DNA of 9,073 nt from Candidatus Vampirococcus lugosii (GTDB taxonomy: Bacteria > Patescibacteriota > Gracilibacteria > Absconditabacterales > Absconditicoccaceae). A program made the translations under genes and the position numbers. The stretch lies in NCBI RefSeq assembly GCF_018420025.1, contig NZ_JAEDAM010000046.1, positions 1 to 9,073 on the forward strand, written 5' to 3'. Numbering within the stretch: position 1 is the stretch's first letter; every line of letters starts with the position of its first letter. The notes beneath the pieces are model-generated. The model was not told where the DNA came from, ran no database searches, and worked only from the letters and a program-made list of their open reading frames with translations. Of the stretch, positions 1 to 9,073 are shown one piece after another.

Positions 1-3000
1 ATTTTCATTTTCATATAAATCAATCAAAATTGTTTTATAATTCAATAAAGATTTATTATTGAATTCATAATTAATATTATGAAACTTTGATAAATTTGAG
101 TAAAATTTATTTATTTGAATAGGGGAGTATGGATTGAATTTATTATTTTCTGTTCATAAAATTCAAACTCAACATGTCCATCTAATACTTGAATCATAAA
201 TTCAATCTAAATTTCAAATATCTGTAATATAACATCATTTGTTTGCATTTAAATTAATTATTGAAGTATTATCATTTATAGATTTTATTAATTTTGCTAA
301 TTCTTTTTTTGTAATAATATTATCTAACTTATCAAATATATCTTCTTCTACTACTCAATTTTTTATATAATAATTTATAATATTTTCAATATTATTTTCA
401 TTTTTTTTATTTTTGTTTATTAATTTATTAATTTTTTCATAATTTTCATTAAATATATTATATATATAATCAAATTTTTTATAATTTTCAAAAATAATCT
501 CTTTATAAATAGGATTTCTTGTTTCTAAAAAATAATCTATTCATAATATCATATATTGATAATAAATTAACATTTCTTGATAATATTTATTTCAAGATAA
601 AATTTTATCAAATTTATTAAAATTTATTATTTTATTAAATAAATATAATTTTTCTTTTAATTCTTTATTTTCAATTTTTATTCTTTTATTTATGTTTTTT
701 CATTTTTTTTCATAAATTATTTTTTCTAAAATTTTATTTATAGCTTCGTTTTTATTATTTTTTTCTAATTTTTTATTTTTTTGATCTTCTTTTACTTTTT
801 TATTTTCCTGTTTGTCATTTTTTTTATCTTTATCTTCTTTTTCTTTATTTTCTTCTTTTTTATCTTTATTTTGATTATTTTCTTCCAATTTTTTATCTTT
901 TTGATTTTCTTTTGGTACTGTCCATCTTGTTCATCCTCAACCTCAAGAAATTCTCTTTTTACAAGAATTTCAAAATTTTGTATATCAAGAATTGCAAGTT
1001 ATTTCCCAATCAGACCAATTTCAATTATGCCAAGTTCTTTTTTTGAATCATCAACAAATATTTTCTTTTTGAGTTTTTCAAACACATTTATTATTTTTCA
1101 ATAAATAATTTTCATCACAAGTTATTTCCCAATCAGACCAATTTCAATTATGCCAAGTTCTTTTTTTGAATCATCAATCAACATTTTCTTTTTGAGTTTT
1201 TCAAACACATTTATTATTTTTCAATAAATAATTTTTATCACAAGTTATTTCCCAATCAGACCAATTTCAATTATGCCAAGTTCTTTTTTTGAATCATCAA
1301 TAAATATTTTCTTTTTGAGTTTTTCAAACACATTTTCAATTTTCACTATGTTCATTATCTCATAAACAAATAGGAAAATATCATTTATATAAGTAATTAT
1401 TTATATTTTTAGCAATAAATGTCTGATCCCAATTATTTTTATCTACTTTTCTTATGTTTTTTATTAACTCATCTATACTTCAAGATTTATTTATAAAATC
1501 TAGATAACTTCCTAAACTTCTACTTTCATCATAAAAATAATATTTTTCATTATTCGCATTATTTTCATATTCATTTTTCCAATTATCAAAGTTTATTCTG
1601 CTTCATATTTTCAAATAAAAAGAATTATAATCAGATTTATTATAATAAATATTATTTTTGAAATTCCATTTATCAATATGTTCATAATCAATAGCTCTTA
1701 TAAAATCATCTTCTCAATCAAAAGATAATATATTTCCAGAAAAAATCATATTTTCTATTTCTCAAAGTTTTCAATTTATTCATTCATAATTATGATCTAA
1801 ATATTCAATTTGTAATCAAATTCAATTTTTTAAATTATGAATAATATTTCAATTTATTGAAACATTTTTTGAAATTCAAGACGAAGAAATTCAATAAACA
1901 TTATTTATTTGATTTTCTTCTTGATTTATAATTAGATTATTTTTTACTTTTCATCAGTCCCAATCAGATATTCAAATTGCCCATCATAAATTTCTATTTG
2001 TAGGTCTAGGCCATCAAATATTAGTAAATATATTATTTTCTATATTTATATCTTGCCAACGAAATTCTGAAGTTAGCCAATCAGATCTTGTATTTCATCA
2101 CATACTAATTCAAATTTCTCATCAAATATATAAATTATTTTTTAATAAAATATTCCAAGATCAAACTGAGCCATCTCAAGTATTAGAAGTAAATTTTGTT
2201 CCTATACTTGCTCATCTAGAAAAAATATTGCCACTAAATACAGAATCAAAAATTCAACTAGCATATACATTATGATTAAACATTGTTGCTTTTCCGTGTC
2301 ATCAAGATCAATCTTGTGAATACCATCAATTATGATCAAAAATATTTTCTTCAAGATTTGCACTTAAACTTGATAAATATAATCATTGAGAGTGTCAGTT
2401 TCAATCACTATAATTATTTAAAATTGTATTTCTTCTAAAATCAAGTCCCCAAATAGTTGTATCATTATTTCAATATCCAGAAATTACATTACTTGTATAA
2501 TAAGAAAATTTATTTCATTCTAACAATATTCATTTTCATTCTCAAACTATTCTCAAACCTCTACTTCAATTAATTCAAGTAAATTCTTCACTATCAGGAT
2601 TTCTTGTATGAGCATAAAATTCTATTCAAGAAATAACTAAATTTCTAAATTCTCAAGTTATAGAAAATCATTGTTCTTTTCAAGTTTTAAATAAAGGCAT
2701 TTTTTTTCATGTTCAATAACTTGTAATTACAAAAGGATTTGATTTTGATTCTCAAAATTTATTTAAATTTCAAAATCATTCATAAAATACACTTCATTTT
2801 TTTATTAATAAAAAATCATTTGAATTATTTCTAATTAAGGAATAAGCTTTCTCAAAAGAATTACAAGAAATTATATTTTGTGGTAAATAAATATTTTCTC
2901 AAATTTCATTTTTTGAATAAGATTTACATTTTTCATCATTTCAATCATTACTTAAATAAACTATTCTTGAATTTTCTGAAGCTTCTAAAATAGTCCATCA

Positions 3001-6000
3001 ATCATTATCTTTTGGTAAATTTAAAAAATATTTTGAGCTATCAACTTTTTTCCTTGGATCAACAGGAACTGTATTGTGATTTTTGTTTACACAAATTGCT
3101 CATAATCAATTATTTTTATTTTCATAATCAAAATTATCAAATTTTTCATCTCAAAAATCAAATCTTTTTGAAATTGCTCTTTCTTCTCAATTTTCATCAG
3201 CAGTCCAAAGATGAAGTCTTGTTCAATTTTGATTTAAAAATCATAAGTCATTGCGAAATCAAGCAAGTCATAAATTATTTATTTTATTATCAATATTTTC
3301 AAAATCTTTATTTTTTGGTAAAGTCCAATTTTTTCATAATAAAGAACAAATTCAATTATTATTTTCTCCAAAAGCAGTTTTCCAAGTATAAAGTCAATAA
3401 AAATCATCAGGACAATTTTTATTAGTACAAGTTGATTTTGACTGTATTATATAAGAATTTTCTCACCAATTATTACATTTTGCTCATCAAGAAAAACATC
3501 TTTTTCAAATTCAAGTATGTTTTACTAATTCTTGAAGCCATAAATTTCAATCTTTCATAATTTCAATATTATAATTATAATCTATTCATTCAATATTTAC
3601 TTTTAATATTCATTTATCTCAAATTTTTGTTCAATCTCAATTAGTCCATTTAATAGTATTTTCTTGAAAAGAAAAGTTTTCTATTTTTTCTCAAACACTT
3701 ACAAATACTGGACTTGTTCAAATTTCTAAATTTATATTATTATCATTTATATTTATTATTTCTTGAAAATAATTTATACTATCAGTTCAAAGTTTTTCAA
3801 AAAGTGCTTTATTGTAATCATTTATTTGTAAATCATAATTTCTTGTTTGTCAGTTTTCAATATTTGGATCCCAAATAGCAAAAGTTTTTTTATCATTTTC
3901 TTTTGATTTAAAAGAAAAAATATATAAATCTTCATCTTCAGAAATAATTTTATCAAAATACATATCTCACAATATTTTTTTTAAACTTATTACAGAATAA
4001 TAAGATTGTTTTGGAGTCCAATCTCATTTTGGTCAAGTAAGTCAAGAACTTGAATGTTTAGTAGTATTTTCAGGATTTACATCTCTTAACATATACATAG
4101 AAATTTTATCAAGTCATGTAGATAATCATATCAAATATCATCTAACAATCCAATTTGCTTGATTTTGTTCATTAATAGCAGTATATTCAGATTTAGGATT
4201 AGTATCCCAACCAAATTCTGTAAGCCAGACTTGTTTATCAGGATAATTTGTATTTCTCCATAAAACTATTTCTCTTAATCTTTCAAAATAATCATTTTTT
4301 TCAGGAGCTTTATCAGTATTATAAGAATGAAAATTAATTACATCAGGAACAAATTTTTTATCATCACGATTTGCTTCAAACCATATTTTCATAAGATTTA
4401 AATAATTTGTCATACTTGAATATCAAACTAATCATCACATAACTAATTTTGAATTAGGATCAGCATTTTTAATTCAAACATTATCTCATAATTTTCATTC
4501 ATGTCAGTCATAATCAGCACTTAACATTGTAGCAAATTCATAAGGAGAAAAGTAAGCATCTCTTCAAGCCCAGTTTTTGTTTGGTTCATTAAAATTTTCA
4601 AAATATTTAATATATCCAAGTCATGATTTTTTTTCTTGATTATCAGCAAGTAATAATTTATCTTCATCAACTTTATTACTTCAATATCTTGCCACAAACT
4701 GAAACATATGTTTTGCATGTTCAATATATGAAGCAGGATCCAAAGGATCTTTTCATTCTTTTATAGGTTTATTATTATGATTTGAATATTCTTTTCAATC
4801 TCATAAAATCCAATTAGCATTTCATTGAATAGCTGGTATTACTTCAATTCATAATTCAGACAAATTTTGATAATAAGCATCAAAATTCCAAATATTATTT
4901 CCACTAGGATTAAACATTTTTTCATTTTTACTTGATCAGTCCCAAGTCATAGAATGATATTCTCTAATATGTCCAAAATTTTTTAATAAATCAATAGGAT
5001 CATCAATAAAAGCATTTAATCAAATAGATTCTCAAATATTTATTCAAAAATCAGGATTTTTTTCAACTGGTTCTTTATCTTTCAAATCTATTTCTTTATT
5101 TAAATATCAATATATTCAAATTTGTTTAATTCAAGAATCAGCATTATCAACGACTAATCTTAAATATCTAGTATTTATATTATCAACTTCTATTATTCTC
5201 CATTTATTATATTTATCAAGTTTTTGAGAAAAGACAAAATCCCATTCAAAAGCTTTTCAAGAATAAACTTTTAATTCTGGATTTCAATTTGAATCAAAAA
5301 ATCAAATATGAGTTATTGTATAATCTCATTTTAAATCTATAATTGCAGATTTTGGTAAATAATCTTTATTTCTAATAGCTTGCCAATTATCTCAAGTAAA
5401 AATTTTTTTTAATTTTTCTTGTGGATTATTTGGAACTTGATCTTGATTATCTACTAAACTATAAGCTTTTGTTATAAAATTATCATGATAATGAGAAATA
5501 TTTTCATCAAATATCATTGATTTATCAAGTTTAATTAATTTTGATTTTTGTGATTCAAGTTTTTCTATAAAATCAATCAAAGCATTATATTTATATCAAA
5601 CTTTTAAATCTTGATTTAAATGAGTTAAAGCTCACCAAGATCAATATTTTGATTGTTTTCATATATCAGTAAAATGTGCAAGTAATCATCATCAATTATC
5701 GCTCCAAGCATTTAACATTAATTCATATAAATCATAAATTCAAGGATTAGTATTTATTTGTTTAAAAAATTCTGTTACTTGTTTATCTTCTTGAGCATAA
5801 GATCAAAGTCAAGAAATATGTTGTCAACCTTCATAAGCTATTAAATTAAGTCAATATTTATCAGCTTTTTCTTTATGATATTTTATTTTTTGAGTTAAAC
5901 TAGGTATTCAAGATCAAGTAAAATATTTTTCTTCTTTTATTTGTTCAAAAGCTTTAGTAAATGCATTTTGTGGAAAATCTTCATTTATTCAATCTTTTCA

Positions 6001-7200
6001 ATCAAGCCAATCTTTTATAATATTTTTATTTTCTTCTTTTTGTAAGCTTCAATTAAAATAAGTTGTTATTGCATAAGAATCAATATTTTCATAACAAACT
6101 TCATTTCATTCTTCAACATAATAAGGACATTCCAAAATTTTTAATTCCATTCCTTCCCAAGCTGTTTGAGTACTTGCTACACAGTTAATTCTTGAATTAT
6201 CATTAAAAACTTGATTTTTGAAAATATTACAAATTTGATTAATTCTCATTCAGTGATATTGCATAAAAGCATCTGCTTTATCTTCTCACCATCTTTCTTT
6301 TCATTTTTTTAATCAATAATGTGCTTGATCAAACATCCAATTCCAAGTTTCGTTACTATATTCTATATAAGAAATTAAATTTTCATTTAAATTATTTTTT
6401 ATTGTTTCTGCAAAATTTTGAATATAATCATCTCAACTTGTATGATGAATTGTAAACCAAGGATTAGAATTTAGTTTATTTGATAATTTAATCATAATTT
6501 CAAGAGGAACTCATTTTGTTGACCAAATACGATCATTTATTTGGGGTCTTTTGTTCCAAGTTGATTGATCTATATCATTGTTTGTTCTCATCCAAACCAT
6601 AAATCTCAAAGTAGAAAAATCTTTTATTATATCAAGCCAATCAGGATTAAAAATTTCATTTTTTTCAAAATTTTTTTTAAATTTTTTGGGGATTATTTTA
6701 ATATTTCTTAAATGATTATTTTGATCAATATCTTTTATTTCAAGCCATAAATAATTATTATTTAATTTTATATGTTTTTCTCAATCTTTTTCTTGTAAAA
6801 TATCAGCTCAAGATATTTTTAAATCTCAATTTCATTCATAATAAATAATATATTCATCATAAGGTATCATTTCTTTTTGATTTCAATGAAAAATTATAGT
6901 CCTTGCATAATCAAAAACTATATCGTTCTCAAATCATTTTATCCATCAATTTTCATCCAAAATTAATTTATCACTTTCTTTAGTATCCCAAGAATTTCAA
7001 TTTTCCAAATTATCACAATTTGTATTTCACCATTCGCATCAAGTTTGCCAATTTGATGCTTGTTTCATAAAATCAATAAAAGGATATTGAGTAGACCAAT
7101 AACTTATTCCTTCTGGGTTCATTCATATAGAAGTATTATTTGCATAACTTGTATTTAGTGTAAATAAAATAAGTGTTAGTAGTAGGATTACTTTTTTCAT
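1..7200 (-). CDS. Giant secreted multidomain carbohydrate-active / adhesin-like protein, over 2400 aa. The 3' end lies beyond the left edge of the window. It is readable only if TGA is a sense codon (Gly, table 25).
   Basis: ATG at 7200..7198 is preceded by an in-frame TAA at 7212..7210. From there 2400 consecutive codons run down to position 1 with no in-frame TAA or TAG, but with about 177 in-frame TGA (hand count). The N-terminus is MKKVILLLTLILFTLNTSYA. Residue n corresponds to the codon whose highest coordinate is 7200-3(n-1). Domain evidence is listed in the sub-features. Confidence 0.9.
646..945 (-). other. Gly5 hinge followed by a K/E/N/D-rich low-complexity stalk (aa ~2086-2185)
   Basis: SGGGGGT is encoded as TGA GGT TGA GGA TGA (931-945). 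It is followed by KENQKDKKLEENNQNKDKKEENKEKEDKDKKNDKQENKKVKEDQKNKKLEKNNKNEAINKILEK... Confidence 0.7.
995..1335 (-). repeat. In-frame tandem repeat with a 123-bp (41-codon) period and about 2.8 copies, encoding a Trp/Cys-rich module
   Basis: Copies lie at 1213-1335, 1090-1212 and ~995-1089. The string caagttatttcccaatcagaccaatttcaattatgccaagttc recurs at 995, 1118 and 1241. Full copies differ by only a handful of bases. The protein unit is KCVGKTQKENI(Y/D/C)GGFKKRTWHNGNWSDWEITC(D/N)xNYLLKNN. Confidence 0.9.
1372..2988 (-). other. Right-handed parallel beta-helix (pectate-lyase-fold / PbH1-repeat) module with its N-cap and C-terminal tail (aa ~1405-1943)
   Basis: The cap is RIVYLSNDGNDEKC ... 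FLLIKKGSVFYEGF ... NPFVITSYGTGKKMPLF. Stacked turns of ~22-25 aa follow: LVISGIEFYA, LRIVGEGKGILLEGNKF, TTIWGLDFRRNTILNNY, GHSQGLYLSSLSANLEENIFDHNGW, ATMFNHNVYASGIFDSVFSGNIFSRG, WNILLKNNLYIGG, QDINIENNIFTNIG, GKVKNNLIINQ, KNVSINGNIIHNL, ENMIFSGNILSF. The tail is LGSYLDFINKSGSIDELIKNIRKVDKNNWDQTFIAKNINNYLYKGY. Confidence 0.65.
3085..3501 (-). other. Cys-containing lectin-like module resembling the Fibrobacter succinogenes major paralogous (FISUMP, TIGR02145-type) domain (aa ~1234-1372)
   Basis: Sequence: CFSGGAKCNNWGENSY..CTNKNCPDDFYGLYTWKTAF..GICSLLGKNWTLPKNKDFENI..LGLAGFRNDLGFLNQNGTRLHLWTADENGEERAISKRFDF..NNGLGAICV. The remembered family layout is YGrLYnW..A, then CP.GWhlP..eW..L, then GF.a.paG.R, then fWs, ending g.svRCv. 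This is a recognition-level call only. Confidence 0.4.
3691..5046 (-). other. Glycoside hydrolase module 2, a clan GH-A-like barrel plus a C-terminal beta-sandwich-like tail (aa ~719-1170)
   Basis: Motifs seen: IGLNAFIDDP, IREYHSMTWDG, FENFNEPNKNW (Glu872, codon 4585-4587), ADYDGHEGKLGDNVG, LVMGGLVG, VINFHSYN, VWLTEFGWDT (Glu995, codon 4216-4218), QANWIVRGYLIGL and SSGLTG..PKQSYYS. The tail is DLYIFSFKSKENDKKTFAIWDP...SPVFVSV. Confidence 0.65.
5104..5400 (-). other. F5/8 type C (discoidin / CBM32-like) carbohydrate-binding module (aa ~601-699)
   Basis: Sequence: FTGDNWQAIRNKDYLPKSAIIDLKGDYTITHIGFFDSNGNPELKVYSGKAFEWDFVFSQKLDKYNKWRIIEVDNINTRYLRLVVDNADSGIKQIGIYGY. This matches the remembered discoidin pattern: W...xxDLxxxxxIxxI, then Y.i..S.dg..W, then aRYlRl, and an ending of IxEIxvyG. 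Confidence 0.55.
5581..7128 (-). other. Glycoside hydrolase module 1, a clan GH-A-like (beta/alpha)8 barrel (aa ~25-540); family not assignable by eye
   Basis: Motifs seen: IGMNPEGISYWSTQYPFIDFMKQASNW, LRFMVWMRTNN, GVPLEIMIKLSN, PWFTIHHTSGDDY, YIEYSNETWN (Asn283-Glu284, Glu codon 6349-6351), LIAYEGGQH (Glu457, codon 5830-5832) and YGSWGAL. An Asn-Glu acid/base followed by a later Glu nucleophile is the GH-A layout. Confidence 0.6.
7141..7200 (-). other. Sec-type signal peptide of the giant protein (aa 1-20), with cleavage likely after SYA
   Basis: MKK is followed by the hydrophobic stretch VILLLTLILFTL and then NTSYA|NN, a small-x-small cleavage pattern. There is no Cys, so it is not a lipobox. 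Confidence 0.7.
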
Positions 7201-7220
7201 AAGTGTTTTTTAAAATGTAA

Positions 7221-7249
7221 ATTTTATCTAAAAAAAGCAATTTTACCAA
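7221..7249 (-). promoter_or_regulatory. Candidate sigma70-like promoter for the giant gene
   Basis: The minus strand reads TTGGTA (7249..7244), then 17 nt, then TAAAAT (7226..7221), about 20 nt upstream of ATG 7200. Such hexamers carry little information in DNA this AT-rich. Confidence 0.3.
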
Positions 7250-7470
7250 TTTTCAAATAAATAAATATTTCTAATTAAATTTCATTTTTTATATACTCAC
7301 ATGAAAAAATATTCATTATCAGTTGGTAAATTTAGATTATATAACCTAATCTTTATATCTTCCTTATCTTTTAAAAAAGATATATTTTCTTTTTTAACAT
7401 TTTCAGGAAAATCTCATAAATCATTTAAATGTGTATCTTCTTGGCAATAGCCTAATATTTTTATTATAAT
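7243..7470 (-). other. Open frame segment shifted +1 from the lipoprotein frame, overlapping and extending past the lipoprotein stop; possibly a frameshifted C-terminal extension
   Basis: 76 codons are free of TAA/TAG between TAG 7473..7471 and TAA 7245..7243: IIIKILGYCQEDTHLNDLGDFPENVKKENISFLKDKEDIKIRLYNLNLPTDNEYFFMGVYKKGNLIRNIYLFENW. The only ATG is at 7302..7300, 19 codons before the stop. Confidence 0.3.
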
Positions 7471-8761
7471 CTAATTCAATATAATCATCATTATATTTTG
7501 CATTTTCTAAATATTTGATAATATTATTTTTTTCAAATATATAAAAAATTTTACTTATTCATGGTGCTGGTTCTAAGCTTTCATACATATAAAAATTTGA
7601 TACTTTATCATTAAATTTAAAATTATTTGAATCTAAATTAAAATTAATATACAAATTCTCATTTTTATAATTTATTTCTAATAAGTTATTATATGGACTC
7701 ATATACTTAACTAAATTAAATTTATTTTCATCTAAATTTTCAAATTTATCTCCTAAAATTCTTAAAATATTTTTATTTAAAATATTTAAAATATCTATAT
7801 CTTTATTCTTAATTATTAAATTAATATTAAATCATTTATTAATAATATTATTAATTTTTTCAATTTCATTATTAGTAAAAAGGTATTTATAATATTGTTC
7901 ATTAAAAGTTATTTTATTATTTTGTAAATCAAACATTTTAAATGAAACTCAAAATGACTGATTTATAGATAATTTATAATCTTCAAAATATATTATATAT
8001 TCTGTTCAATTTCTTCAGTGATCTATTTCTTTCAACAACAAAAAATCATAATAAATAAAATTATTATGAAAAAATATAAAATAATATTTCTCATTACAAA
8101 TATTATTTTTACAATATATATAATATTTTCAGTTATTATCTAATAAATCTTTTTTCTCCTCAAAAACATACTCCAAACTATTATTTTTTTCCAAAAAATA
8201 ATTTTCACTTTTTATTTTTTCTCAATTTGAAAAAAATGAAAATTCAAAATTATTACACAAATTTCAATTATTTTTAGAAATATTATAAACAAAAGTTTCA
8301 TCTCATTTATTAAATTGTTGTAAAGTATAAGGATTATCTTCTCAACAACTTCTAACAATTATTTGATCTGGTTCTCATGATTTTATAGTTCAAATTAACT
8401 GATATTTTGGAATACAAAAATCGTCATAATTAAAAATATCTGTATTTTCTTTTAATATTTCAAACTTTTCTTTATCAATTATACAATTATTATAATCAAC
8501 TAATTCTTTTACTTCAAAATCAATTTTCATTAAATTTTCTTTATTTTCTTCTTCTATAACTTTTACTTCTTCATCAATTATTTTAGTTTTTCCCTCTTCA
8601 TCAATTTTATCTTCTTCAGTATATTGACTAACTTTTTCTTCTGATTTTTCATTTTCAACATTCAAATCATGATTACTTTCATCTTTAACCTTTCAACTTT
8701 CTTCTTGATTACAAGCTGATAAAATTAAAGTAAGTGTTATTAATAGGATTATTTTTTTCAT
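7394..8761 (-). CDS. Lipoprotein of unknown function (455 aa under table 25, with 15 in-frame TGA)
   Basis: ATG at 8761..8759 is preceded by an in-frame TAA at 8779..8777. The stop is TAA at 7396..7394, and no other TAA or TAG occurs in frame. The N-terminus MKKIILLITLTLILSAC has the lipobox L-S-A-C (Cys17 codon 8711-8713). An acidic E/K-rich linker (aa ~18-75) precedes an N/Y/F/K-rich body with scattered Cys. The gene is co-oriented with and directly upstream of the giant gene. Confidence 0.8.
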
Positions 8762-8793
8762 AATATTTTTTATTAATTATTTAAAATATAAAA

Positions 8794-8821
8794 TATATAT
8801 TTATAATAAATAAAAAAGCAA
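8794..8821 (-). promoter_or_regulatory. Candidate sigma70-like promoter for the lipoprotein gene
   Basis: The minus strand reads TTGCTT (8821..8816), then 16 nt, then TATATA (8799..8794). The TTGCTTTTTT decamer also occurs upstream of the giant gene (7240..7231). The information content is low. Confidence 0.25.
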
Positions 8822-8839
8822 ACATTTCTTTAATATATT

Positions 8840-8851
8840 CCCGCCCGGGCG
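8840..8851. promoter_or_regulatory. All-G/C block containing the perfect 10-bp palindrome CGCCCGGGCG; candidate operator or protein-binding site in the divergent intergenic region
   Basis: CCCGCCCGGGCG occupies 8840-8851, and the palindrome occupies 8842-8851. It is followed by A7 at 8854-8860. It lies 81 nt from ATG 8761 and 74 nt from ATG 8925, and 11 nt upstream of the -35-like TTGATT. It is the only GC-rich run in the window. Confidence 0.4.
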
Positions 8852-8862
8852 AGAAAAAAATA

Positions 8863-8890
8863 TTGATTTTGGTAAAGAAAAAATTATAAT
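8863..8890 (+). promoter_or_regulatory. Candidate sigma70-like promoter for the AAA-ATPase-like gene
   Basis: TTGATT (8863-8868), then 16 nt, then TATAAT (8885-8890), 34 nt upstream of ATG 8925. Confidence 0.4.
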
Positions 8891-8924
8891 GAAAAAGATT
8901 TAGTAATATTAAAAAAATAAAGAT

Positions 8925-9073
8925 ATGAAAAAAATAGCAATATGAATACAAGATTTTAAGAAATTAATAACAGATAATTATTATTATATAGACAAAACTA
9001 AAATAATATATAATTTGTTGATAAGTAATAATTATTATTTTTTGTCTAGACCAAGAAGGTTTGGGAAATCATT
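8925..9073 (+). CDS. N-terminus of a predicted AAA-ATPase-like protein (PF09820-type; family members usually carry a C-terminal PD-(D/E)XK nuclease-like domain); partial, continuing past the right edge
   Basis: The translation is MKKIAIGIQDFKKLITDNYYYIDKTKIIYNLLISNNYYFLSRPRRFGKS. This matches the remembered family N-terminus: PIGIQdF, then NYYYVDKT, then YYFLSRPRRFGKS. Gly7 is encoded by TGA at 8943-8945. Confidence 0.85.

What the first reader, a model, noticed from the sequence alone, without database searches (positions are those of the whole stretch)
1..9073. Stop-codon reassignment: TGA is read as glycine (table 25, Gracilibacteria / Absconditabacteria type)
In the minus-strand frame that starts at 7200, I counted about 177 TGA and no TAA or TAG over 2400 codons. 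TGA therefore cannot be a stop here. Composition distinguishes Gly from Trp. The ORF has only about 19 GGN codons, which would give 0.8% Gly without TGA and about 8% with it. It already has about 61 TGG codons, about 2.5% Trp, and reading TGA as Trp would push Trp to about 10%.

Motif context agrees with Gly:
- The second G of LIAYEGGQH is TGA (5824-5826).
- LVMGGLVG uses TGA three times (4423-4437).
- DNGGGLL is three consecutive TGA (5686-5694).
- YYEGNGDLKISGAD uses TGA for its three glycines.
- The independent plus-strand gene has TGA at the Gly of the family-conserved IGIQDF motif (8943-8945).

This single fact turns an apparently gene-poor window into three dense genes. It also places the sequence in a candidate-phyla-radiation lineage.
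Basis: partly seen in the sequence, partly recalled or inferred. Interest (0 to 1): 0.9.

Follow-up and report, generated by a model that had tools for sequence, protein, structure and literature searches.

The report
TGA read as glycine (code 25)

Summary
The minus-strand frame 7209..1 is open for 2403 codons with no TAA or TAG, and holds 177 TGA, 61 TGG and 19 GGN.

The interpretation, TGA = Gly and not Trp, is strongly supported.
- I masked TGA as X and aligned the giant protein to 114 homologues with normal Gly and Trp content. 131 of the 177 TGA sites are covered. The partner residue is Gly in 52% of confident cells and Trp in 0.35%. That matches the GGN control (55% Gly). TGG pairs with Trp in 61% of cells.
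- Substituting each of the 20 amino acids at TGA gives G +3482 bits over X, S +85 and W -3516.
- No other adequately sampled codon deviates from the standard code.

With TGA as sense the window holds three genes at 96% coding density:
- a secreted multidomain protein of more than 2400 aa with glycosidase-like and beta-helix domains;
- a lipoprotein;
- the start of a PF09820 AAA-ATPase.

The closest relative found is a BD1-5 family UBA6164 MAG: GC 0.21, 78% identity over the 49-aa ATPase start. Its locus carries a tRNA(UCA) with glycine identity elements. Comparable low-GC MAG loci use TGA for 66-86% of Gly codons, against 90% here.

This is genetic code 25, known since 2013 and confirmed by proteomics. 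It is a new sequence of a known kind, of low novelty.

The parts
1..7200 (-). Gene 1: a secreted multidomain protein of more than 2400 aa. The ATG is at 7198-7200 and the 3' end runs off the window. It has 177 in-frame TGA (Gly), 61 TGG and 19 GGN. Domains, in protein residues: signal peptide; domain A 23-547 (clan GH-A-like TIM barrel plus beta-sandwich); a possible beta-sandwich module about 600-700, guessed from the sequence by eye and with no significant family hit; domain B 735-1173 (PslG/GH39-like, with NEP and TEFG motifs); a weak FISUMP-like match at residues 1254-1309; a right-handed beta-helix within the homologue-covered stretch 1346-1958; three 41-aa Cys-rich repeats; a K/E/N-rich linker; and an uncharacterised C-terminal part.
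   Evidence: ORF and codon counts. Homologues. PslG match. FISUMP match at 23.7 bits, below the 41.65-bit cutoff. No Pfam hit for the 600-700 stretch or any other segment. Beta-helix assignment rests on names and PF13229 in the homologues. Fold of the domain A family.
7394..8761 (-). Gene 2: a 455-aa lipoprotein with MKKIILLITLTLILSAC lipobox, 15 in-frame TGA, no TGG, and a TAA stop at 7394-7396. No homologues were found in the libraries searched, so it gives no independent test of what TGA means.
   Evidence: Pfam LPAM_1 at 22.7 bits, above the 20-bit cutoff. No informative family or phage match.
8925..9073 (+). Gene 3: the first 49 codons of a PF09820 'predicted AAA-ATPase', cut off by the window end. 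The TGA at 8943-8945 sits at the family-conserved Gly of IGIQDF.
   Evidence: PF09820 scores 71.6 bits with G, 67.8 with X and 67.3 with W. The same motif with TGA occurs in 9 low-GC code-25-type MAG loci.
5824..5826 (-). TGA encoding the second Gly of the family-invariant Y-E-G-G-Q motif, which I read as the putative nucleophile region of domain A.
5686..5694 (-). Three consecutive TGA codons (DNGGGLL). The homologue consensus here is GGG.
4423..4437 (-). TGA TGA TTA GTT TGA, giving GGLVG in domain B. It aligns to 'MGGLAS' in P0002.
6802..6843 (-). YYEGNGDLKISGAD, with all three Gly encoded by TGA. Two of the three (6832-6834 and 6826-6828) are invariant Gly columns in the domain A family.
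995..1335 (-). A 123-bp tandem repeat, 2.8 copies at 97% identity. It encodes the three 41-aa Cys/Trp-rich repeats, and the TGA codons are conserved in each copy.
8762..8924 (.). A 163-bp AT-rich divergent intergenic region between gene 2 and gene 3. Promoter-like matches here are no more frequent than in shuffled sequence.

Best explanation
The window is chromosomal DNA, or possibly DNA of a resident mobile element, from an organism that uses genetic code 25: UGA is decoded as glycine and is not a stop.

Shown here:
- UGA occupies positions where standard-code homologues have Gly.
- UGG alone stands for Trp.
- TAA ends the one gene whose stop codon lies in the window.
- UGA supplies about 90% of all Gly codons in a sequence of 20.5% GC.

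Inferred from the literature and from a relative's locus:
- A tRNA-Gly with anticodon UCA (G1:C72, C2:G71, G3:C70, U73) reads UGA.
- Release factor 2 has been lost, so UGA no longer terminates.
- AT mutation pressure then moved Gly codons from GGN (two G/C) to UGA (one G/C).

The organism most likely belongs to the code-25 clade of Patescibacteria (GTDB class JAEDAM01: BD1-5 plus Absconditabacterales), near the very low-GC BD1-5/UBA6164-type genomes.
For: 1. Frame statistics: 2403 open codons, chance about 10^-65.

2. Query masked with X at TGA, against 114 homologues with normal Gly and Trp content:
- 131 of 177 TGA sites are covered.
- Gly fills 1799 of 3467 high-confidence cells (51.9%) and Trp 12 (0.35%).
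- Background is G 9.1% and W 2.1%.
- The GGN control gives 54.9% G and the TGG control 60.6% W.
- All 16 TGA columns that are at least 80% conserved are Gly.

3. Substitution scan: G +3482 bits relative to X, better for 112 of 114 targets. The next best is S at +85. W scores -3516 and C -2699. The first 18 homologues gave the same ranking.

4. A second set of 10 standard-code metagenome loci: G 71 of 135 cells, W 2 of 135.

5. Domain A family: of 8 invariant Gly columns, 7 are TGA and 1 is GGT here. All 4 invariant Trp columns are TGG.

6. PF09820: +3.8 bits with G and -0.5 with W, relative to X.

7. A per-codon tally shows that no other codon with adequate sampling deviates from the standard code.

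8. Lineage:
- A DNA pattern that puts TGA at the PF09820 Gly found 9 genuine hits, all in MAG loci of GC 0.18-0.24 named Gracilibacteria, Patescibacteria UBA6164 or 'Peribacteria'.
- The best is L005 (UBA6164) at 77.6% identity over 49 aa.
- UBA6164 is placed in Gracilibacteria; BD1-5 by GTDB (PMC12093946).
- Eight of those loci use TGA for 66-86% of Gly codons. The ninth, L004 (1.4 kb), has only four Gly codons, all TGA.
- L005 4640-4718(-) is a tRNA(UCA) with G1:C72, C2:G71, G3:C70, U73 and an encoded CCA. These are the glycine identity criteria used in PMC8629427.

9. Literature:
- UGA=Gly in Absconditabacteria and Gracilibacteria, with GC 0.21-0.53 (PMC8629427).
- Proteomic validation (PMC4032931).
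- GTDB class JAEDAM01 uses table 25 (preprint 10.64898/2026.05.24.727570).
Against: - The window contains no tRNA, no prfB and no phylogenetic marker, so neither the decoding machinery nor the taxon is observed directly.
- All homologues of the giant protein come from organisms outside that clade. Lineage placement therefore rests on one 49-aa, highly conserved, multi-copy ATPase fragment plus composition.
- The window sequence is absent from the three collections scanned, tested with a single exact 50-mer.
- Only one stop codon (TAA) is visible, so exclusive use of TAA/TAG as stops is barely sampled.
- The 15 TGA in the lipoprotein gene have no homologue columns to test.
Confidence: 0.95

Rival explanations
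1. TGA is read as tryptophan (table 4), as in Mycoplasmatales and AT-rich insect endosymbionts, which also have GC near 20%.
For: GC is very low at 20.5%. UGA to Trp is the commoner bacterial reassignment (PMC8629427). The lipoprotein gene has 15 TGA and no TGG.
Against: - Trp sits opposite TGA in 0.35% of homologue cells, against 60.6% opposite TGG.
- Writing W at TGA lowers the score for all 114 homologues, by 3516 bits in total.
- Trp would reach 9.9% and Gly 0.8% of the giant protein.
- PF09820 loses 0.5 bit with W and gains 3.8 with G.
Confidence: 0.01
2. TGA is still a stop. The region would then be a decayed pseudogene, non-coding DNA, or a run of short ORFs.
For: Table 11 gives only ORFs of 137 aa or less.
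Against: - Homology to full-length domains runs unbroken, in one frame, across 131 TGA sites.
- No TAA or TAG occurs in 2403 codons, chance about 10^-65.
- The same TGA-at-Gly pattern appears in a second, independent gene.
Confidence: 0.005
3. The code is 25, but the DNA belongs to a phage, prophage or plasmid of a Gracilibacteria or Absconditabacteria host rather than to the core chromosome.
For: Code-25 phages and prophages dense in in-frame TGA are documented (PMC10746230). PF09820 ATPases are multi-copy in these MAGs: three loci in UBA6164.
Against: - No phage hallmark gene is present.
- The window has no DNA match to 50,697 phage records, and the lipoprotein has no protein match to them.
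- The 50-mer is absent from IMG/VR.
- Gene content (a secreted glycosidase-like giant protein and a lipoprotein) looks cellular.
Confidence: 0.08
4. The organism uses the Absconditabacterales variant of the code: UGA=Gly plus CGA/CGG=Trp.
For: This variant was predicted for Absconditabacteria and some Gracilibacteria (PMC8629427). Complete absence of CGA and CGG from 2905 codons fits the codons being rare or in the process of capture.
Against: - There are no CGA or CGG codons to test.
- Their absence is expected anyway at 20% GC, with GC3 at 7.8%.
- The nearest relatives found are BD1-5 type, not Absconditabacterales.
Confidence: 0.15

Closest known systems
NCBI genetic code 25 (Candidate Division SR1 / Gracilibacteria; GTDB class JAEDAM01 = BD1-5 + Absconditabacterales)
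   Same: - UGA is sense and sits at conserved Gly positions.
- UGG remains the only Trp codon, and the observed stop is TAA.
- GC is very low.
- Gly usage is dominated by TGA, as in low-GC BD1-5 MAG loci (66-86%).
- A relative's locus has a tRNA-Gly(UCA).
   Different: - GC of 0.205 sits at or just below the published range of 0.21-0.53.
- The TGA share of Gly codons (90%) is slightly above the comparison loci.
- The sequence and its proteins were not found in the collections searched.
- Clade membership could not be tested with marker genes.
Genetic code 4 (Mycoplasmatales/Entomoplasmatales and AT-rich endosymbionts: UGA=Trp)
   Same: A UGA stop-to-sense reassignment in an AT-rich genome. Table 11 gene calls collapse in the same way.
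   Different: The amino acid is Gly, not Trp. UGG stays abundant at 2.1% of codons instead of being displaced by UGA.
Absconditabacterales code variant (UGA=Gly, CGA/CGG=Trp; Shulgina & Eddy 2021)
   Same: UGA=Gly. CGN codons are nearly extinct and AGA is the main Arg codon (56 AGA against 4 CGN).
   Different: CGA and CGG do not occur at all in the three genes, so their meaning cannot be read here. The nearest relatives are BD1-5 type.
Code-25 phages and prophages of Gracilibacteria/Absconditabacteria (PMC10746230)
   Same: Dense in-frame TGA and almost no gene calls under code 11.
   Different: No phage genes and no phage database matches. The genes present are cell-envelope or secreted types.

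Membership tests
Genetic code 25 (UGA=Gly) | Long ORFs free of TAA/TAG but dense in in-frame TGA; coding density collapses under table 11 | tested here: met
   2403 open codons with 177 TGA. Coding density is 96% with TGA as sense, against ORFs of 137 aa or less under table 11.
Genetic code 25 (UGA=Gly) | TGA positions align to conserved Gly, not Trp, in homologues from standard-code organisms | tested here: met
   51.9% Gly against 0.35% Trp over 131 sites and 114 homologues. All 16 strongly conserved TGA columns are Gly. G scores +3482 bits and W -3516. Replicated on 10 metagenome loci.
Genetic code 25 (UGA=Gly) | UGG keeps its Trp meaning and all other codons are standard | tested here: met
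   TGG pairs with W in 60.6% of cells. In the per-codon tally, no other codon with enough columns deviates.
Genetic code 25 (UGA=Gly) | Genome encodes a tRNA(UCA) with Gly identity elements (G1:C72, C2:G71, G3:C70, U73) | not testable with these tools
   The window has no tRNA and its contig was not found. A tRNA of this kind is present in the closest relative's locus, L005 4640-4718.
Genetic code 25 (UGA=Gly) | Loss of release factor 2 (prfB) | not testable with these tools
   This needs the whole genome, and only 9 kb is available.
Genetic code 25 (UGA=Gly) | Genes terminate with TAA or TAG only | tested here: inconclusive
   Only one stop codon lies in the window: TAA at 7394-7396.
GTDB class JAEDAM01 (BD1-5 + Absconditabacterales) | Phylogenetic placement by rRNA or ribosomal-protein markers | not testable with these tools
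   The window has no marker gene. Indirect support: the best relative of the ATPase fragment is a UBA6164 (BD1-5) MAG at 77.6% identity, with matching GC and Gly-codon usage.
Absconditabacterales code variant | CGA/CGG at conserved Trp positions | tested here: inconclusive
   0 CGA and 0 CGG in 2905 codons.
Genetic code 4 (UGA=Trp) | TGA positions align to conserved Trp | tested here: not met
   12 of 3467 cells are Trp. W lowers the score for 114 of 114 homologues.

The most novel reading that the evidence does not exclude
The window could come from a lineage, or a mobile element, outside the known JAEDAM01 clade that acquired UGA=Gly independently. Alternatively it could represent an end-stage of codon capture within that clade. 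In that case UGA has almost completely replaced GGN (90% of Gly codons; GGG and GGC nearly extinct), leaving GGN codons free for later loss or reassignment. Without marker genes or the tRNA set, neither reading is excluded.
Probability: 0.05. Interest if true: 0.65.

Novelty: new member of a known kind. Interest (0 to 1): 0.2.

Why it matters
The practical value is correct annotation. Under the default bacterial code this window looks gene-poor. Under code 25 it yields three genes, one of them a giant secreted glycosidase-like protein typical of the surface arsenal of episymbiotic or predatory CPR bacteria.

Biologically it adds one more very low-GC example in which the reassigned stop codon has become the main glycine codon. 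It does not change what is known about code 25.

The 'mask the codon, substitute all 20 amino acids, tally homologue columns' check worked decisively on a single 9-kb window. That may be useful for triage of similar windows.

Tried and rejected
I used the word-indexed search instead: the X query gave 2 hits and the two G-substituted queries gave 17 and 96. All tallies were redone with the X-masked query to avoid circularity.
- Pfam finds no domain in the giant protein with TGA read as X, G or W, or when it is cut into segments. NCBIfam gave only a sub-threshold FISUMP hit.
- A profile of domain A has no PDB sequence match and no Pfam match. Only the predicted fold identified it as a clan GH-A-like barrel.
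- An exact 50-mer from the window is absent from genome contigs, viral contigs and metagenome contigs, so the source contig, its tRNAs and its prfB could not be examined.
- The search for related loci in metagenomes returned only distant relatives (26-44% identity) in standard-code contigs. No close ortholog was available for a direct TGA-versus-GGN synonymous-substitution test.
- The BD1-5 loci contain no relatives of the giant protein or the lipoprotein.
- The window DNA and the lipoprotein have no match in the phage collection.
- No Rfam family and no tRNA in the window.
- Rfam did not recognise the L005 tRNA(UCA) at the gathering threshold. ARAGORN did.
- Campbell et al. 2013 (PMC3619370) is not held in the library. 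Statements about it are second-hand, from papers that cite it.


Full report
**Observation.** The window is 9073 bp with 20.5% GC. Under the bacterial code it holds only seven ORFs of 60 aa or more, the longest 137 aa.

If only TAA and TAG count as stops, the minus-strand frame 7209..1 is open for 2403 codons and runs off the window. TAA and TAG make up 6.0% of codons in the other five frames, so an open frame this long has a chance probability near 10^-65.

- 5824-5826 is the second Gly of LIAYEGGQH.
- 4423-4437 is TGA TGA TTA GTT TGA, giving GGLVG.
- 5686-5694 is TGATGATGA.
- YYEGNGDLKISGAD (6802-6843) has all three Gly as TGA.
- 8943-8945 is the Gly of IGIQDF.

**Genes.** With TGA as sense there are three genes at 96% coding density.
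1. 7200..1 (-): a protein of more than 2400 aa with an N-terminal signal peptide.
2. 8761..7394 (-): a 455-aa lipoprotein. Pfam LPAM_1 scores 22.7 bits, above its cutoff. It has 15 TGA and a TAA stop.
3. 8925..9073 (+): the first 49 codons of a PF09820 'predicted AAA-ATPase'.

**Which amino acid?** To avoid circularity I wrote X at every TGA.

I first retrieved homologues with the X-masked query (2 hits). I then used two G-substituted queries, the whole protein and its C-terminal half, for sensitivity (114 proteins in all). All tallies were made from alignments of the X-masked query. All 114 homologues have ordinary Gly (6-14%) and Trp (0.6-2.9%) content. The named ones are Cyanobacteriota, Sulfurovum, Halarcobacter, Methylophaga, Gynuella, Naegleria and others. 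They are therefore independent of any code-25 assumption.

Column tally:
- 131 of the 177 TGA sites are covered by homologue alignments.
- In 3467 high-confidence cells the partner residue is Gly in 51.9% and Trp in 0.35%. Background is G 9.1% and W 2.1%.
- The window's own GGN codons pair with Gly in 54.9% of cells, and its TGG codons with Trp in 60.6%.
- All 16 TGA columns that are at least 80% conserved are Gly.

Substitution scan: writing each of the 20 amino acids at TGA and summing phmmer scores gives G +3482 bits over X, better for 112 of 114 targets. S scores +85, A -147, C -2699 and W -3516, and W is worse for every target. The first 18 homologues gave the same ranking.

Further checks:
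- A second set of ten standard-code metagenome loci gives G 71 of 135 cells and W 2 of 135.
- In the domain A family alignment, 7 of the 8 invariant Gly columns are TGA here and 1 is GGT. All 4 invariant Trp columns are TGG.
- The independent plus-strand gene scores 71.6 bits against PF09820 with G, 67.8 with X and 67.3 with W.
- A per-codon tally shows no other adequately sampled codon departing from the standard code.
- CGA and CGG never occur in the 2905 codons. The Absconditabacteria-type CGA/CGG-to-Trp change (PMC8629427) can therefore be neither seen nor excluded.

**Codon usage.** TGA supplies 193 of 215 Gly codons (90%). The rest are GGA 15, GGT 4, GGC 2 and GGG 1. GC3 is 7.8%. Total Gly is 7.4% and Trp 2.1%, both normal values.

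**Origin.** A 50-mer from the window is absent from the genome, viral and metagenome collections, and the window's proteins are not in the protein database.

I then searched 185,579 species genomes for the PF09820 N-terminal motif with TGA at the Gly position (pattern checked on the window; scan). Of 24 matches, 12 are genuine PF09820 starts.
- Nine of these lie in MAG loci with GC 0.18-0.24, named Candidatus Gracilibacteria (two MAGs), Patescibacteria group bacterium UBA6164, and one 'Candidatus Peribacteria' MAG.
- The remaining three lie in contigs that otherwise look standard-code. They are probably pseudogenes or errors.
- The best match is L005 (UBA6164), at 77.6% identity over the 49 residues.
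- GTDB places UBA6164 in Patescibacteria; Gracilibacteria; BD1-5 (PMC12093946).
- By a crude ORF count, eight of those loci use TGA for 66-86% of their Gly codons. The ninth, L004, is too short to estimate. The window's 90% is therefore the high end of a known pattern, not an outlier.

L005 also carries a tRNA with anticodon UCA at 4640-4718(-). ARAGORN labels it SeC only because of the anticodon. Its sequence shows G1:C72, C2:G71, G3:C70, discriminator U73 and an encoded CCA. These are the criteria for tRNA-Gly(UCA) used by Shulgina and Eddy (PMC8629427). This is evidence from a relative, not from the window's own genome.

**Mechanism.**
- Shown: UGA is a glycine codon here, UGG is Trp, and TAA terminates the one complete gene.
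- Inferred from the clade's literature and the relative's locus: a dedicated tRNA-Gly(UCA) decodes UGA, RF2 is absent, and AT pressure has driven Gly codons from GGN to UGA.

**What is known.**
- UGA=Gly in SR1/Absconditabacteria and Gracilibacteria/BD1-5 dates from Campbell et al. 2013 and Rinke et al. 2013, both cited in PMC8629427.
- It was validated by proteomics in a BD1-5 enrichment: 97 Gly-specific peptides against 3 Trp-specific (PMC4032931).
- It is NCBI table 25. GTDB class JAEDAM01 is treated as table 25, with hundreds of genomes (preprint 10.64898/2026.05.24.727570).
- The published GC range is 0.21-0.53 (PMC8629427).
- Heavy use of TGA as a Gly codon in these bacteria is already noted (PMC10746230).
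- Code-25 phages exist (same paper). This window has no phage genes and no phage matches.

**The giant protein (side result).** Pfam recognises nothing in it.
- Domain A (residues 23-547) belongs to an unannotated family. It often occurs in tandem in large surface proteins of marine bacteria, and has invariant S-N-E-x-W-N and Y-E-G-G-Q motifs.
- An AlphaFold model of a homologue domain, built from 10 sequences, has mean pLDDT 81. It matches clan GH-A TIM-barrel glycosidases (GH53, GH10, GH51, GH79, GH5/26) at Foldseek E 1e-6 to 1e-4, with modest TM-scores of 0.36-0.55.
- Domain B (735-1173) is weakly PslG/GH39-like (E 2e-4).
- After it come a sub-threshold FISUMP-like match and a right-handed beta-helix shared with about 96 homologues.
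- Then come three 41-aa Cys-rich repeats, encoded by a 123-bp tandem repeat at 995-1335.
- A K/E/N-rich linker and an uncharacterised C-terminal part follow, running to the window end.
- The likely role is a secreted or surface polysaccharide-degrading and binding protein. This is inference only.

**Verdict.** Lineage remains indirect because the window holds no marker genes, tRNA or prfB. The phenomenon is established knowledge, and the window is a new sequence of a known kind. Interest is low (0.2).

The only routes to something new are an origin outside JAEDAM01 or a true near-extinction of GGN codons. Neither can be judged from 9 kb.

Noticed in passing
window 5560-7140 (-), protein residues 23-547; homologues P0001, P0003, P0004, P0006, P0008-P0011, P0042: Domain A of the giant protein belongs to a widespread family with no Pfam or PDB sequence match. 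The family is often duplicated in tandem within one protein. It has invariant SNExWN and YEGGQ motifs, and a predicted fold that matches clan GH-A TIM-barrel glycosidases. It may be an unclassified glycoside hydrolase family.
   Followed up: partly
window 1-7200 (-): All detectable homologues of the three large domains (30-44% identity) are from standard-code organisms. The named ones are largely marine taxa (Halarcobacter, Sulfurovum, Methylophaga, Gynuella, Cyanobacteriota), and none is from CPR. This suggests old horizontal acquisition followed by near-complete recoding of Gly codons from GGN to TGA.
   Followed up: no
window 995-1335: A 123-bp tandem repeat, 2.8 copies at 97% identity. It encodes three 41-aa Cys/Trp-rich repeats (CVGKTQKEN..GGFKKRTWHNGNWSDWEITC) with no family match.
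   Followed up: partly
L005 4640-4718 (-) (Patescibacteria group bacterium UBA6164, DIUG01000022.1): A tRNA with anticodon UCA and glycine identity elements (G1:C72, C2:G71, G3:C70, U73, encoded CCA). ARAGORN calls it tRNA-SeC, and Rfam misses it at the gathering threshold.
   Followed up: yes
L021 6138-6193 (Bacillota MAG S9M_St_35), L019 3433-3488 (Hungatella MAG), L003 169-224 (Bacteroidia MAG): PF09820 genes with an in-frame TGA at the same conserved Gly, in contigs that otherwise look standard-code (TGA is 1-18% of TGA+GGN in long ORFs). They may be pseudogenes, sequencing errors or mis-binned DNA.
   Followed up: no
L007 and L014 (MAG named 'uncultured Candidatus Peribacteria bacterium' SRP144503_co3_68): These contigs use TGA as a sense codon at Gly positions, with GC 0.21-0.24 and TGA at 66-76% of Gly codons. 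The MAG behaves like a code-25 BD1-5 genome, so its NCBI name is probably wrong.
   Followed up: no
window, all three genes: CGA, CGG, CTC, CTG, CCG, ACC, ACG and GCC are absent from the 2905 codons, and GC3 is 7.8%. The Arg-to-Trp reassignment of CGA/CGG reported for Absconditabacteria cannot be assessed here.
   Followed up: partly
window 896-916 (-), protein residues 2096-2102 (approximate coordinates): The Gly run in 'SGGGGGT' is written TGA GGN TGA GGN TGA. The reassigned codon alternates with standard Gly codons within one poly-Gly linker.
   Followed up: no
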